A stretch of 64,000 bases of DNA from NCBI RefSeq assembly GCF_009914755.1, contig NC_060935.1; one strand, written 5' to 3'. Positions 1 to 19,210 of this stretch are shown here, piece after piece (position 1 is the first letter of the stretch; every line of letters begins with the position of its first letter). This DNA is from the human T2T-CHM13v2.0 reference genome, Homo sapiens. Below the pieces are notes generated by a model. That model saw only the letters and a program-made list of their open reading frames with translations, searched no databases and was not told where the DNA came from. A program made the position numbers and the translations under genes.

Positions 1-2842
1 CCACCGATCCCCCCAGAGAATACTACAAACACCTCTTCGCAAATAAACTAGAAAATCTAGAAGAAATGGATAAATTCCTTGACACATACACTCTCCCAAG
101 ACTAAACCAGGAAGAAGTTGAATCTCTGAATAGACCAATAACAGGATCTGAAATTGTGGCAATAATCAATAGCTTACCAACCAAAAACAGTCCAGGACCA
201 GATGGATTCACAGCCGAATTCTACCAGAGGTACAAGGAGGAACTAGTACCCTTCCTTCTGAAACTATTCCAATCAATAGAAAAAGAGGGAATCCTTCCTA
301 ACTCATTTTATAAGGCCAGCATCATTCTGATACCAAAGCCGGGCAGAGATACAACCAAAAAAGAGAATTTTAGACCAATATCCTTGATGAACATTGATGC
401 AAAAATCCTCAATAAAATACTGGCAAAATGAATCCAGCAGCACATCAAAAAGCTTATCCACCATGATCAAGTGGGCTTCATCCCTGGGATGCAAGGCTGG
501 TTCAATATACGCAAATCAATAAATGTAATCCAGCATATAAACAGAGCCAAAGACAAAAACCATGTGATTATCTCAATAGATGCAGAAAAGGCCTTTGACA
601 AAATTCAACAACCCTTCATGCTAAAAACTCTCAATAAATTTGGTATTGATGGGACATATTTCAAAATAATAAGAGCTACCTATGACAAACCCACAGCCAA
701 TATTATACTGAATGGGCAAAAACTGGAAGCATTCCCTTTGAGAACTGGCACAAGACAGGGATGCCCTATCTCACCACTCCTATTCAACATAGTGTTGGAA
801 GTTCTGGCCAGGGCAATTAGGCAGGAGAAGGAAATAAAGGGTATTCAATTAGGAAAAGAGGAAGTCAAATAGTCCCTGTTTGCAGACGACATGATTGTAT
901 ATCTAGAAAACCCCATTGTCTCAGCCCAAAATCTCCTTAAGCTGATAAGCAACTTCAGCAAAGTCTCAGGATACAAAATCAATGTGCAAAAATCACAAGC
1001 ATTCTTATACACCAACAACAGACAGACAGAGAGCCAAATCATGAGTGAACTCCCATTCACAATTGCTTCAAAGAGAATAAAATACCTAGGAATCCAACTT
1101 ACAAGGGACATGAAGGAGCTCTTCAAGGAGAACTACAAACCACTGCTCAAGGAAATAAAAGAGGATACAAACAAATGAAAGAACATTCCATGCTCATGGG
1201 TAGGAAGAATCAATATCGTGAAAATGGCCATACTGCCCAAGGTAATTTACAGATTCAATGCCATCCCCATCAAGCTACCAATGACTTTCTTCACAGAATT
1301 GGAAAAAACTACTTTAAAGTTCATATGAAACCAAAAAAGAGCCCGCATCGCCAAGTCAATCCTAAGCCAAAAGAACAAAGCTGGAGGCATCACACTACCT
1401 GACTTCAAACTATACTCCAAGGCTACAGTAACCAAAACAGCATGGTACTGGTACCAAAACAGAGATATAGATCAATGGAACAGAACAGAGCCCTCAGAAA
1501 TAACGCCGCATATCTACAATTATCTGATCTTTGACAAACCTGAGAAAAACAAGCAATGGGGAAAGGATTCCCTATTTAATAAATGGTGCTGGGAAAACTG
1601 GCTAGCCATATGTAGAAAGCTGAAACTGGATCCCTTCCTTACACCTTATACAAAAATCAATTCAAGACGGATTAAAGACTTAAATGTTAGACCTAAAACC
1701 ATAAAAACCCTAGAAGAAAACCTAGGCATTACCATTCAGGACATAGGCATGGGTAAGGACTTCATGTCTAAAACACCACAAGCAATGGCAACAAAAGCCA
1801 AAATTGACAAATGGGACCTCATTAAACTAAAGAGCTTCTGCACAGCAAAAGAAACTACCATCAGAGTGAACAGGCAACCTACAAAATGGGAGAAAATTTT
1901 CGCAACCTACTCATCTGACAAAGGGCTAATATCCAGAATCTACAATGAACTCAAACAAATTTACAAGAAAAAAACAAACAACCCCATCAAAAAGTGGGCG
2001 AAGGACATGAACAGACACTTCTCAAAAGAAGACATTTATGCAGCCAAAAAATACATGAAAAAATGCTCATCCTCACTGGCCATCAGACAAATGCAAATCA
2101 AAACCACAATGAGATACCATCTCACACCAGTTAGTATGGCAATCATTAAAAAGTCAGGAAACAACAGGTGCTGGAGAGGATGTGGAGAAATAGGAACACT
2201 TTTACACTGTTGGTGGGACTGTAAACTAGTTCAACCATTGTGGAAGTCAGTGTGGCGATTCCTCAGGGATCTAGAACTGGAAATACCATTTGACCCAGCA
2301 ATCCCATTACTGGGTATATACCCAAAGGACTATAAATCACACTGCTATAAAGACACATGCACACGTATGTTTATTGCGGCATTATTCACGATAGCAAAGA
2401 CTTGGAACCAACCCAAATGTCCAACAATGATAGACTGGATTAAGAAAATGTGGCACATATACACCATGGAATACTATGCAGCCATAAAAAATGATGAGTT
2501 CATGTCCTTTGTAGGGACATGGATGAAATTGGAAATCATCATTCTCAGTAAACTGTCGCAAGAATAAAAAACCAAACACCGCATATTCTCACTCATAGGT
2601 GGGAATTGAACAATGAGATCACATGGACACAGGAAGGGGAACATCACACTCTGGGGACTGTTGTGGGGTGGGGGGGAGGGAGGAGGGATAGCATTGGGAG
2701 GTATACCTAATGCTAGATGATGAGTTAGTGGGTGCAGCACACCAGCATGGCACATGTATACGTATGTAACTAACCTGCACAATGTGCACATGTACCGTAA
2801 AACTTAAAGTATAATAATAAATAAATAAATAAATAAATAAAA
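1..2842 (+). mobile_element. LINE-1 'A' (L1PA2-like), 3' part of ORF2 + 3'UTR + (TAAA)n tail; continues beyond the left window edge; ORF2 disabled
   Basis: ORFs 66-431, 471-872, 891-1178 and 1749-2567 are L1 ORF2 pieces (RT motifs, CWRGC..HCWWDC knuckle) broken by stops (e.g. TAG at 870-872 just before FADD). 3'UTR has GAGATCACATGG and GATGAGTTAGTG (GAG rather than the L1HS ACA) and CTTAAAGTATAAT. Confidence 0.95.
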
Positions 2843-3744
2843 GGAAAAATAAATAAACATTAATATCAAATAAACATTAGAATCTGCGGTGAGGGAATTA
2901 AAATGAGAATGGGCAAAAGAGATAAAAGAAATTAATGATTAAATAAAAATGAGAAAGGGCTTGTGCAGACCAATGGCAATGATTTTCCTTAAAGTGACAG
3001 TCATACTTAACCCAACCCTCTGTACTTGAAATATGAAAGAAAAGAGGAATTTTCTCTTCTGATTCAAGCCTCTTTATGTAGGGCACTGAAATTCATGCAG
3101 AGGAGTTTGAACTTGCTGAAGTACATAAATGTCTCTGAACTTTTCCTAATTAAGAGGGACTTTAAATTTCTCCAGCCCAAACCTAAAGATGTGTTAAAGA
3201 TTAAAGCTACTGACTCAGGGGGTGGGAGAAATGGAACCCAAAAGAGATTCAATGGCTGAAAAGGTCATGGTCTGTCCCCATAGATAATCCTAATAAGCCA
3301 CAGGAAAGAGAATGGAGAAGATTGAAGTATTGAAAAATTGAGGGCCCCATCATATTCAAAATTGAGTCATTTCAACCAGGTTAGAGGCCATAGAGATAAA
3401 GTAATATGTATTAAAAGCCAGTTATTTGCCAGGGTTAAGCGTGGTGTTAGATTTATAACACTCATTTATTCATTCAATGATGTGTTCAATGTCTATTGAA
3501 TACATATTAAGTGTCACGCTTTTTCAAATCACTGGGGGTACAGAAGTGAACAATCTGGCTCATTTTGATGGCTTATATGAAGTGAAAGTAGACACATAAT
3601 AAACAAACAAATTGATTAAACAAGAAAAAAATAGAGATAATTGCTATGCAAAGAATTTTTTGTTTGTTTGTTTTCTCTTCTTTGCTATGCAAAGAATTTA
3701 AGCTGAGTGATGGAAGAAAAGGTAACTGGATGGCTTTAGGGAGC

Positions 3745-16645: not shown

Positions 16646-19210
16646 GAAACTATTCCAATCAATAGAAAAAGAGGCAATCCTCCCTAACTCATTTTATGAG
16701 GCCAGCATCATTCTGATACCAAAGCCAGGCAGAGACACAACAAAAAAAAGAGAATTTTAGACCAATATCCTTGATGAACATTGATGCAAAATCCTCAGTA
16801 AAATACTGGCAAAACGAATCCAGCAGCACATCCAAAAGCTTATCCACCATGATCAAGTGGGCTTCATCCCTGGGATGCAAGGCTGGTTCAATATATGCAA
16901 ATCAATAAATGTAATCCAGCATATAAACAGAGCCAAAGACAAAAACCACATGATTATCTCAATAGATGCAGAAAAGGCCTTTGACAAAATTCAACAACCC
17001 TTCATGCTAAAAACTCTCAATAAATTAGGTATTGATGGGACGTATTTCAAAATAATAAGAGCTATCTATGACAAACCCACAGCCAATATCATACTGAATG
17101 GGCAAAAACTGGAAGCATTCCCTTTGAAAACTGGCACAAGACAGGGATGCCCTCTCTCACCACTCCTATTCAACATAGTGTTGGAAGTTCTGGCCAGGGC
17201 AATTAGGCAGGAGAAGGAAATAAGGGGTATTCAATTAGGAAAAGAGGAAGTCAAATAGTCCCTGTTTGCAGACGACATGATTGTATATCTAGAAAACCCC
17301 ATTGTCTCAGCCCAAAATCTCCTTAAGCTGATAAGCAACTTCAGCAAAGTCTCAGGATACAAAATCAATGTACAAAAATCACAAACATTCTTATACACCA
17401 ACAACAGACAGAGAGCCAAATCATGAGTGAACTCCCATTCACAATTGCTTCAAAGAGAATAAAATACCTAGGAATCCAACTTACAAGGGATGTGAAGGAC
17501 CTCTTCAAGGAGAACTACAAACCACACTGCTCAATGAAATTAAAGAGGATACAAAGAAATGGAAGAACATTCCATGCTCATGGGTAGGAAGAATCAATAT
17601 CGGGAAAATGGCCATACTGCCCAAGGTAATTTATAGATTCAATGCCATCCCCATCAAGCTACCAATGACTTTCTTCACAGAATTGGAAAAAACTACTTTA
17701 AAGTTCATATGGGACCAAAAAAGAGCCCGCATCGCCAAGTCAATCCTAAGCCAAAAGAACAAAGCTGGAGGCATCACACTACCTGACTTCAAACTATACT
17801 CCAAGGCTACAGTAACCAAAACAGCATGGTACTGGTACCAAAACAGAGATATAGATCAATGGAACAGAACAGAGCCCTCAGAAATAATGCCGCATATCTA
17901 CAACTATCTGATCTTTGACAAACCTGAGAAAAACAAGCAATGGGGAAAGGATTCCCTATTTAATAAATGGTGCTGGGAAAACTGGCTAGCCATATGTAGA
18001 AAGCTGAAACTGGATCCCTTCCTTACACCTTATACAAAAATCAATTCAAGACGGATTAAAGACTTAAACGTTAGACCTAAAACCATAAAAACCCTAGAAG
18101 AAAACCTAGGCATTACCATTCAGGACATAGGCATGGGCAAGGACTTCATGTCTAAAACACCACAAGCAATGGCAACAAAAGCCAAAATTGACAAATGGGA
18201 CCTCATTAAACTAAAGAGCTTCTGCACAGCAAAAGAAACTACCATCAGAGTGAACAGGCAACCTACAAAATGGGAGAAAATTTTCGCAACCTACTCATCT
18301 GACAAAGGGCTAATATCCAGAATCTACAATGAACTCAAACAAATTTACAAGAAAAAAACAAACAACCCCATCAAAAAGTGGGCGAAGGACATGAACAGAC
18401 ACTTCTCAAAAGAAGACATTTATGCAGCCAAAAAATACATGAAAAAATGCTCATCCTCACTGGCCATCAGACAAATGCAAATCAAAACCACAATGAGATA
18501 CCATCTCACACCAGTTAGTATGGCAATCATTAAAAAGTCAGGAAACAACAGGTGCTGGAGAGGATGTGGAGAAATAGGAACACTTTTACACTGTTGGTGG
18601 GACTGTAAACTAGTTCAACCATTGTGGAAGTCAGTGTGGCGATTCCTCAGGGATCTAGAACTGGAAATACCATTTGACCCAGCCATCCCATTACTGGGTA
18701 TATACCCAAAGGACTATAAATCATGCTGCTATAAAGACACATGCACACGTATGTTTATTGCGGCATTATTCACGATAGCAAAGACTTGGAACCAACCCAA
18801 ATGTCCAACAATGATAGACTGGATTAAGAAAATGTGGCACATATACACCATGGAATACTATGCAGCCATAAAAAATGATGAGTTCATGTCCTTTGTAGGG
18901 ACATGGATGAAATTGGAAATCATCATTCTCAGTAAACTGTCGCAAGAACAAAAACCAAACACCATATATTCTCACTCATAGGTGGGAACTGAACAATGAG
19001 ATCACATGGACACAGGAAGCGGAATATCACACTCTGGGGACTGTTGTGGGGTGGGGGGAGGGGGGAGGGATAGCATTGGGAGATATACCTAATGCTAGAT
19101 GACGAGTTAGTGGGTGCAGCGCACCAGCATGGCACATGTATACATATGTAACTAACCTGCACAATGTGCACATGTACCCTAAAACTTAAAAGTATAATAA
19201 TAATAATAAT
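16646..19210 (+). mobile_element. 5'-truncated L1PA2 'C' with complete 16-bp TSD
   Basis: AAAGAATAATCATTAT at 16630-16645 and 19211-19226. 3'UTR GATGACGAGTTAGTGGGTGCAGCGCACC, (TAA)n tail, ORF2 C-terminus open at 17608-18981. Confidence 0.95.

What the first reader, a model, noticed from the sequence alone, without database searches (positions are those of the whole stretch)
1755..18683. Very recent 8,192-bp tandem duplication made by L1PA2 x L1PA2 unequal crossover
Seen: order is L1-A, 5.6-kb spacer, L1-B, identical spacer, L1-C. The lag stays 8192 throughout (no net indel, even across homopolymers and the TAAA tail) and I saw no substitution between copies by eye. B has C's truncation point and C alleles at 9696, 9712, 9877 and 9946, then A alleles from 10492 (also 10532-10533 and 10757) plus A's tail and flank, so the crossover lies in 9947-10491 (545 bp identical in A, B and C). 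Established: this is the NAHR duplication signature. Inference: the ancestral allele is A-spacer-C, the event is extremely young and probably polymorphic, and a reciprocal 8,192-bp deletion and higher-copy alleles should exist.
Basis: partly seen in the sequence, partly recalled or inferred. Interest (0 to 1): 0.9.

Follow-up and report, generated by a model that had tools for sequence, protein, structure and literature searches.

The report
Young L1-mediated 8.2-kb tandem duplication
Two old L1 retrotransposon copies lying 8 kb apart in a gene-poor part of human chromosome 11 recombined out of register and duplicated the DNA between them, a well-known kind of structural change that is real here but ordinary.

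Summary
Window 1755-10491 equals 9947-18683: 8,737 bp at lag 8,192 with no mismatch or indel. The middle L1 (B) matches C at every informative site up to 9946 and matches A from 10492 on, with one clean switch. B has C's 5' target-site duplication but A's tail and flank, so it was made by recombination and not by insertion. The spacer occurs only twice in the whole assembly, both times here. The best reading is homologous unequal exchange (NAHR) between a full-length L1 (A) and a 5'-truncated L1 (C). The exchange resolved in their longest identical block, 545 bp. New here: that block lies in a 1.2-kb tract where A and C diverge by 0.65%, against 3.1% and 5.7% outside it. In that tract they share 9 rare non-CpG variants, which points to an earlier A/C gene conversion. 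Zero differences bound the age at about 0.35-0.53 My or less. The duplicated unit also carries an LTR12-type solo LTR. Three things could not be tested: the L1PA2 label, population frequency, and read support in CHM13. Known kind; low interest.

The parts
1..2866 (+). L1-A, the 3' 2.9 kb of a full-length L1. It starts about 3,186 bp upstream of the window (L009 about 6814), is about 6.0 kb in total, has broken ORF1 and ORF2, and ends in an (AATA)n tail at 2816-2857.
   Evidence: the 5'UTR start is seen in L009. Pfam finds Tnp_22_dsRBD (E 4e-46), Exo_endo_phos (E 5e-20) and RVT_1 (E 4e-20) on separate broken frames.
1755..9946 (+). Duplication unit, copy 1 (8,192 bp).
   Evidence: identical to 9947-18138.
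9947..18138 (+). Duplication unit, copy 2 (8,192 bp).
2867..8449 (.). Spacer copy 1 (5,583 bp). It is unique DNA plus an imperfect TGA/TGG repeat at 4005-4151 and a solo LTR.
11059..16641 (.). Spacer copy 2, identical to copy 1.
   Evidence: exact string identity; only two copies in the assembly.
8450..11058 (+). L1-B, the chimeric L1. It has C's 5' truncation point and C alleles to 9946, then A alleles from 10492 and A's tail.
9947..10491 (+). Crossover interval in B. This 545-bp block is identical in A (1755-2299), B and C (18139-18683) and lies in the ORF2 C-terminal part of the L1.
8438..8453 (+). Copy of C's 5' target-site duplication at B's 5' edge. It has no partner at B's 3' edge.
   Evidence: the 16-mer occurs only at 8438, 16630 and 19211 within 1-22000.
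16642..19210 (+). L1-C, a 5'-truncated L1 (about 2.57 kb: RT domain, ORF2 C-terminus and 3'UTR) with an (AAT)n tail.
   Evidence: RVT_1 found in the identical B copy at 8665-9066.
16630..16645 (+). C's 5' target-site duplication (16 nt).
19211..19226 (+). C's 3' target-site duplication (16 nt, exact).
1330..2565 (+). Low-divergence tract of A against C (the same tract in C is 17714-18949). It is the inferred earlier gene-conversion tract. The shared rare variants span A 1417-2555.
6184..7646 (+). Solo LTR of LTR12/ERV9 type, copy 1 (1,463 bp). It runs TG...CA and has the 4-bp flanking repeat CTAC at 6180-6183 and 7647-7650. Its 41-bp U3 repeats (7.2 copies) lie at 6871-7160.
   Evidence: family features from the review PMC11853044.
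14376..15838 (+). Solo LTR, copy 2, identical to copy 1.

Best explanation
A full-length L1 (A) and a 5'-truncated L1 (C) inserted independently in the same orientation, with homologous positions 8,192 bp apart. At some earlier time an ectopic gene conversion homogenised about 1.1-1.2 kb of their ORF2 C-terminal region and left a 545-bp block of perfect identity (inferred). Much later, C on one chromatid or homologue paired out of register with A on the other. A homologous exchange resolved inside that block. The product is A - spacer - B (5' part from C, 3' part from A) - spacer - C, an 8,192-bp direct tandem duplication. It also doubles an LTR12-type solo LTR. No mutation has occurred in either copy since, so the event is at most a few hundred thousand years old. 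It could be as recent as the CHM13 germline or the cell line. Shown: the structure, the single switch, the target-site pattern and the genomic uniqueness of the spacer. Inferred: the pairing and exchange mechanism, the earlier conversion and the age.
For: Exact identity over 8,737 bp at lag 8192. A single clean switch: every variable column of the three-way alignment is B=C up to 9946 and B=A from 10492 on (A and C themselves differ at 56 positions within the L1 part), and no column contradicts this. The crossover lies in the longest A/C identity block, 545 bp against 223 bp for the next. C has an exact 16-nt target-site duplication, while B has only C's 5' copy plus A's tail and flank. The spacer occurs 2 of 2 times at this locus in the 3.1-Gb assembly. 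For the earlier conversion: A/C divergence is 0.65% in 1330-2565 against 3.09% and 5.70% in the flanks (Fisher p 1e-7, boundaries chosen after seeing the data). A run of 545 or more under uniform placement has P about 7e-5. There are 9 shared variants, each carried by 0-2 of 29 other L1 copies and all non-CpG, inside the tract, against 1 in 1,339 bp of flanks (p 0.009). For age: the 95% upper bound is 12,000-18,000 generations for recalled rates of 1.0-1.5e-8 per bp per generation. Context from print: 4 of 96 LINE-1-mediated rearrangements in three genomes were duplications (PMC9675761, passages). A genome-wide screen found five extra-copy regions in CHM13, and all were judged real from HiFi reads (preprints 10.1101/2021.07.02.450803 and 10.1101/2021.07.12.452063, passages).
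Against: No reads, no second human genome and no ape genome could be examined. The single-copy ancestral allele is therefore inferred and was not seen. Two identical copies are also what an assembly loop would give. A replicative, homology-driven template switch would leave the same product. For the conversion step: the tract boundaries were chosen post hoc. The 29-copy panel is 29 of the 40 copies the tool scored, out of 16,769 candidates. Within the tract A has 6 private variants and C has none (binomial p 0.03), an asymmetry that a single old conversion does not predict well. The locus was not found among 493 published TE-mediated rearrangements, but that search rests on my estimated GRCh38 coordinate.
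Confidence: 0.85

Rival explanations
1. Assembly artefact: CHM13 really has A-spacer-C, and the assembler looped once through the repeat.
For: Perfect identity of the two copies is what a false duplication would produce. No reads could be inspected here.
Against: B is a specific chimera whose C-type and A-type marker sites lie 546 bp apart, so reads carrying both must exist for it to be assembled. A 545-bp repeat is far shorter than HiFi or ONT reads. The T2T screens for extra-copy regions flagged only five loci, all judged true from HiFi depth (passages). That screen dropped regions overlapping LINEs, so it is not airtight for this locus.
Confidence: 0.04
2. The same duplication arose mitotically, in the mole or in the CHM13 cell line, by unequal sister-chromatid exchange. 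It would then be private or mosaic and not a human polymorphism.
For: There are zero differences between the copies. [quoted passage not shown] The four small regions total about 18 kb. A 5.6-kb non-LINE spacer would fit that size class.
Against: Zero differences are equally expected for any germline event younger than about 100,000 years. The list of those loci is in supplements I could not open, and 'chr11' occurs 0 times in both main texts.
Confidence: 0.15
3. Homology-driven replicative repair produced the duplication instead of a reciprocal crossover. This would be break-induced replication or a template switch from C back to A.
For: The product would be identical. The TE-rearrangement literature invokes replication-based repair for duplications (PMC9675761 introduction, passage).
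Against: The junction has no inserted bases, no microhomology-only join and no extra template switches. It sits in 545 bp of perfect identity, the classic substrate for homologous recombination.
Confidence: 0.1
4. The duplication is old and its two copies are kept identical by continuing gene conversion.
For: This L1 pair shows signs of past gene conversion.
Against: Homogenising 8.2 kb to 0 differences while A and C keep 56 differences over 2.6 kb would need conversion that spares the outer L1s.
Confidence: 0.03

Closest known systems
LINE-LINE-mediated NAHR copy-number variants (Startek et al. 2015, PMC4344489; abstract and outline seen)
   Same: Directly oriented L1s act as recombination substrates and produce gains or losses whose breakpoints lie inside the L1s.
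   Different: Their substrate rule was over 4 kb in length and over 95% identity. Here the shared homology is only about 2.57 kb, because C is truncated, so this pair falls below their prediction threshold. The event is 8 kb, far smaller than their array-detected CNVs.
TE-mediated rearrangements of the homologous-recombination class (Balachandran et al. 2022, PMC9675761; passages and supplementary xlsx searched)
   Same: The TEs are in the same orientation and a chimeric TE sits at the junction. The size (8.2 kb) is within about two-fold of their median for LINE-1 events (4,469 bp).
   Different: Duplications were rare in their set (4 of 96 LINE-1 events). No coordinate beginning 4291-4296 occurs in their table, so this locus is not among their 493 events if my GRCh38 estimate of about 42.93 Mb is right.
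Rare tandem duplications of T2T-CHM13 reported by the T2T consortium (preprints 10.1101/2021.07.02.450803 and 10.1101/2021.07.12.452063; passages seen)
   Same: A tandem duplication present in CHM13, possibly rare or arising in the cell line.
   Different: Whether this locus is one of their five is unknown, because their tables could not be read.
Ectopic gene conversion between dispersed L1 copies (recalled from the literature; no paper read here)
   Same: A tract of lowered divergence holding shared private substitutions between two independently inserted copies.
   Different: Here the converted tract later served as the crossover site. I inferred that sequence of events and did not find it described for this locus.

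Membership tests
NAHR / TE-mediated homologous-recombination tandem duplication | Two homologous repeats in direct orientation bracket the duplicated unit | tested here: met
   A and C are both on the + strand and 97.8% identical over 2,568 aligned bp.
NAHR / TE-mediated homologous-recombination tandem duplication | The junction repeat is an in-register chimera with a single parental switch and no inserted or deleted bases | tested here: met
   all variable columns are B=C up to 9946 and B=A from 10492; the lag is constant at 8192.
NAHR / TE-mediated homologous-recombination tandem duplication | The breakpoint lies in an extended tract of perfect identity | tested here: met
   545 bp, the longest of all A/C identity blocks.
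NAHR / TE-mediated homologous-recombination tandem duplication | The chimeric element lacks its own matching target-site duplications | tested here: met
   The 16-mer occurs at 8438, 16630 and 19211 only; B's 3' flank is A's flank.
NAHR / TE-mediated homologous-recombination tandem duplication | An unduplicated (ancestral) allele exists in other genomes or outgroups | not testable with these tools
   No other human or ape assembly and no reads were available. Only the window's own assembly could be searched.
L1PA2 subfamily (for A and C) | Diagnostic positions against subfamily references (RepeatMasker/Dfam classification) | not testable with these tools
   No repeat library is held. Pfam confirms only that these are L1 elements.
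L1PA2 subfamily (for A and C) | Age-appropriate divergence and absence of the L1HS Ta/pre-Ta 3'UTR trinucleotide | tested here: inconclusive
   In the flanks, private variants number 19 for A and 16 for C per 1,339 bp, about 1.4% and 1.2%. Both have GAG at the diagnostic 3'UTR spot. These fit L1PA2 only by recalled values (about 1.3% mean divergence; ACA/ACG marking L1HS).
LTR12 (ERV9) solo LTR | U3 region with 5-17 tandem repeats of about 41 nt carrying CCAAT and the GATA motif TCTGTATCTAGCT | tested here: met
   TRF finds period 41 with 7.2 copies, and the 82- and 160-nt consensus units contain CCAAT and TCTGTATCTAGCT. The features are as stated in PMC11853044.
LTR12 (ERV9) solo LTR | LTR termini TG...CA, a short target-site duplication, and thousands of dispersed copies | tested here: met
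   6184 TG ... CA 7646, flanked by CTAC on both sides. There were 3,894 and 3,150 first-look candidates, and all of the 40 scored in each search matched; apart from the locus itself their long matches were 87-93% identical. The 4-bp rule for class I ERVs is recalled.
Interlocus gene conversion (A with C) | A tract of significantly reduced divergence between the paralogues | tested here: met
   0.65% against 3.09% and 5.70%; Fisher p 1e-7 (post hoc boundaries); run-length P about 7e-5.
Interlocus gene conversion (A with C) | Shared derived variants confined to the tract | tested here: met
   9 in the tract against 1 outside, all non-CpG, each present in 0-2 of 29 panel copies.
Interlocus gene conversion (A with C) | Donor and direction identified | tested here: inconclusive
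   A has 6 private variants in the tract and C has 0. The direction cannot be resolved without orthologues.

The most novel reading that the evidence does not exclude
This L1 pair is a repeatedly used recombination substrate. An earlier gene conversion created a long identity tract, which turned a sub-threshold pair (2.6 kb of homology at about 97% identity outside the tract) into an NAHR hotspot. If so, humans should carry an allelic series at this site (deletion, one, two or more units), each changing the copy number of an LTR12 regulatory element in the gene desert upstream of API5.
Probability: 0.25. Interest if true: 0.35.

Novelty: new member of a known kind. Interest (0 to 1): 0.2.

Why it matters
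This is a clean, base-resolved example of how dispersed L1 copies reshape the human genome. It may also show a two-step path, conversion first and crossover later, in which a short, diverged L1 pair becomes able to undergo NAHR. In practice, reads and variants over chr11:43,091,755-43,108,683 of T2T-CHM13 will map ambiguously, or show an 8,192-bp 'deletion', in people who lack the duplication. No gene is annotated in the window. The only plausible functional cargo is a doubled LTR12 solo LTR, so biological consequences are probably small.

Tried and rejected
1. File or buffer artefact, considered because the lag is exactly 2^13. Rejected for two reasons. The separately held whole assembly shows the same two copies at the same coordinates. 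The lag is also set by the L1 register: A stays aligned to B and C at lag 8192, with scattered mismatches, outside the identical block.

2. Independent insertion of B. Rejected because of the target-site pattern.

3. Looking the locus up in print.
- The TE-rearrangement table of PMC9675761 has no coordinate beginning 4291-4296.
- Two phrase searches of that table found nothing. A row already seen in the table was not found either, so phrases do not cross table cells and those two calls say nothing.
- The GRCh38 position (about 42.93 Mb) is my estimate. It combines API5 exons at C11:43,474,076 and onwards with a recalled GRCh38 API5 start.
- The T2T lists of rare CHM13 duplications are in supplements that are closed, or belong to papers that are not held.
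- Full-text searches returned no paper naming this locus.

4. Earlier findings of this scan were not open.

5. Rfam gave 0 matches at gathering score in 1-20000.

6. ORFs of 100 aa or more in the GC-rich LTR (6180-6905) have no Pfam match.

7. The PRDM9-type 13-mer gave 8 hits against 1.03 expected. All are C-rich low-complexity matches in L1 3'UTRs or the TGA repeat, and none lies in the 545-bp block. I draw nothing from it.

8. A's own target-site duplication. Only a degenerate A-rich match was seen (no exact match of 12 nt or more in 10 kb upstream). It is left as probable only.

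
Full report
**Observation**

The window is T2T-CHM13 chr11:43,090,001-43,154,000. A lag-8192 self-comparison shows one unbroken identical run from 1755 to 10491 against 9947 to 18683. That is 8,737 bp with no substitution and no indel. The 8,192-bp unit 1755-9946 equals 9947-18138. The 5,583-bp spacers 2867-8449 and 11059-16641 are string-identical. 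A search of the whole 3.1-Gb assembly with spacer 4500-6100 finds exactly two full-length copies, both at this locus. The other seven matches are fragments of 33-40 bp. The structure is therefore in the assembly, is local, and involves otherwise unique DNA.

**The three L1s**

- A is the 3' part of a full-length L1 of about 6.0 kb. It begins about 3,186 bp upstream of the window.
- Pfam finds the L1 ORF1 dsRBD-like domain, the ORF2 endonuclease and the reverse transcriptase on separate broken frames. A ends in an (AATA)n tail.
- C is 5'-truncated (about 2.57 kb) and ends in an (AAT)n tail. It is flanked by an exact 16-nt target-site duplication at 16630-16645 and 19211-19226.
- A and C differ at 56 of 2,568 aligned positions (2.18%) plus 8 indel events. 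They have different tails and flanks, so they are independent insertions.

**B is a recombinant**

In a three-way alignment, every variable column up to and including 9946 has B=C, and every one from 10492 on has B=A. The B=A part includes A's longer tail and A's 3' flank. No column contradicts a single switch. B carries C's 5' target-site copy (8438-8453), but that 16-mer is absent from B's 3' side. B therefore cannot be an insertion. It is the junction of an in-register exchange between C (5') and A (3').

The exchange lies in 9947-10491. This block is 545 bp long, identical in A, B and C, and the longest A/C identity block; the next is 223 bp. The ancestral state A-spacer-C follows from this, but I did not observe it in any other genome.

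The 545-bp identity is much longer than A/C divergence predicts. With 56 mismatches placed uniformly, a run of 545 or more has P about 7e-5. Divergence by region is:

| A coordinates | A/C divergence |
|---|---|
| 256-1329 | 3.09% |
| 1330-2565 | 0.65% |
| 2566-2830 | 5.70% |

The Fisher test gives p = 1e-7, with boundaries chosen after seeing the data. I then compared A and C column by column with 29 other L1 copies from the same genome. These were L011-L039, about 97% identical to A, and are 29 of the 40 copies the tool scored out of 16,769 candidates.

- A and C share 9 variants within 1417-2555 that occur in 0-2 of the 29 copies. All 9 are at non-CpG sites and several are transversions.
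- Only 1 such variant (at 871) lies in the 1,339 bp of flanks (p = 0.009).
- In the flanks both elements carry private variants: 19 for A and 16 for C.
- In the tract C carries none and A carries 6.

The simplest reading is an earlier ectopic gene conversion between A and C over about 1.1-1.2 kb. This conversion created the identity block in which the later crossover resolved. The direction is unresolved, and the 6:0 asymmetry (p = 0.03) is not well explained.

**Age**

There are no differences in 8,192 bp across two lineages. Taking recalled mutation rates of 1.0-1.5e-8 per bp per generation, the 95% upper bound is 12,000-18,000 generations, about 0.35-0.53 My at 29 years per generation. The median is about 3,000-4,000 generations. 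The unit has only one perfect microsatellite and no long homopolymer, so indel-prone tracts add little to the dating. The event may be a human polymorphism, private to CHM13's germline, or mitotic.

**Cargo**

The spacer has four parts:

- Unique DNA from 2867 to 6183, including an imperfect TGA/TGG repeat at 4005-4151.
- A 1,463-bp element at 6184-7646.
- Its 4-bp flanking repeats CTAC at 6180-6183 and 7647-7650.
- Unique DNA from 7651 to 8449.

The 6184-7646 element has TG...CA ends. It carries 7.2 copies of a 41-bp unit containing CCAAT and TCTGTATCTAGCT. It has thousands of dispersed relatives at 87-93% identity. These are the published hallmarks of LTR12 (ERV9) solo LTRs (PMC11853044, passages). 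Rfam finds nothing at gathering score in 1-20000. The hub annotation lists no gene in the window.

**Rivals**

- Assembly loop. It cannot be excluded without reads, but it would need reads carrying the specific chimera. The T2T consortium's screen for extra-copy regions in CHM13 flagged five loci and judged all five real (passages). That screen discarded LINE-overlapping regions, so it does not fully cover this site.
- Cell-line origin. The same preprint says two of the four small rare duplications looked mosaic and may have arisen in the cell line. I could not open the tables to see whether this locus is one of them. I give a mitotic or culture origin about 15%.
- Replicative homology-driven repair. 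It would leave the same product and cannot be told apart from a crossover here.

**Comparison with what is known**

L1-L1 NAHR is well documented. Startek et al. 2015 predicted 17,005 substrate pairs using over 4 kb and over 95% identity (abstract). This pair shares only about 2.6 kb and would not qualify. Balachandran et al. 2022 found 96 LINE-1-mediated rearrangements in three genomes, of which 4 were duplications (passages). Their table holds no coordinate beginning 4291-4296. I estimate the GRCh38 position at about 42.93 Mb from API5 plus a recalled coordinate, so this negative result is soft. Full-text searches returned no paper naming this locus.

**The L1PA2 label**

The label could not be tested formally. 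The private-variant load of about 1.2-1.4% per element and GAG at the 3'UTR diagnostic trinucleotide are consistent with it, but only by recalled values.

**Verdict**

The NAHR interpretation is supported. The claims about polymorphism, a reciprocal deletion and higher-copy alleles remain untested. This is a new instance of a known kind, with a modest mechanistic nuance (conversion before crossover). Interest is low.

Noticed in passing
L009 6661-6750 (about 3.3 kb upstream of the window start): The 3' end and poly-A tail of another, older-looking L1 lies in the same orientation, about 60 bp upstream of A's 5' end. L1s are therefore stacked head to tail here.
   Followed up: no
window 29322-30670, 47115-47616, 55075-55388, 60506-61290: Further L1 3'-end fragments lie in direct orientation with A, B and C. 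The one at 60506-60991 is 96% identical to A over 300-nt test stretches, which makes it a possible substrate for larger rearrangements.
   Followed up: no
window 1755-18683: The duplication period is exactly 8192 = 2^13. I treat this as coincidence, because the lag is fixed by the L1 register and the same copies are in the separately held assembly.
   Followed up: yes
window 2671-2683, 10863-10875, 19053-19065 (- strand): Matches to the 13-mer CCNCCNTNNCCNC lie in the G-rich 3'UTR tract of each L1, about 370 bp 3' of the crossover block. The window total is 8 against 1.03 expected, but all are low-complexity matches.
   Followed up: partly
window 20316-20367: A (TG)26 microsatellite lies just downstream of the duplication.
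   Followed up: no
window 20912-21192 and 22251-22531: A pair of 281-nt direct repeats, 83% identical and 1.3 kb apart, coincides with two masked stretches of about 300 bp. They are presumably two SINE copies.
   Followed up: no
G000:C23:114516489-114517998 and G000:C2:178479939-178481460: There are intronless API5-like matches, with internal stops in most segments. They look like processed pseudogenes and turned up while I located API5 for coordinate conversion.
   Followed up: no
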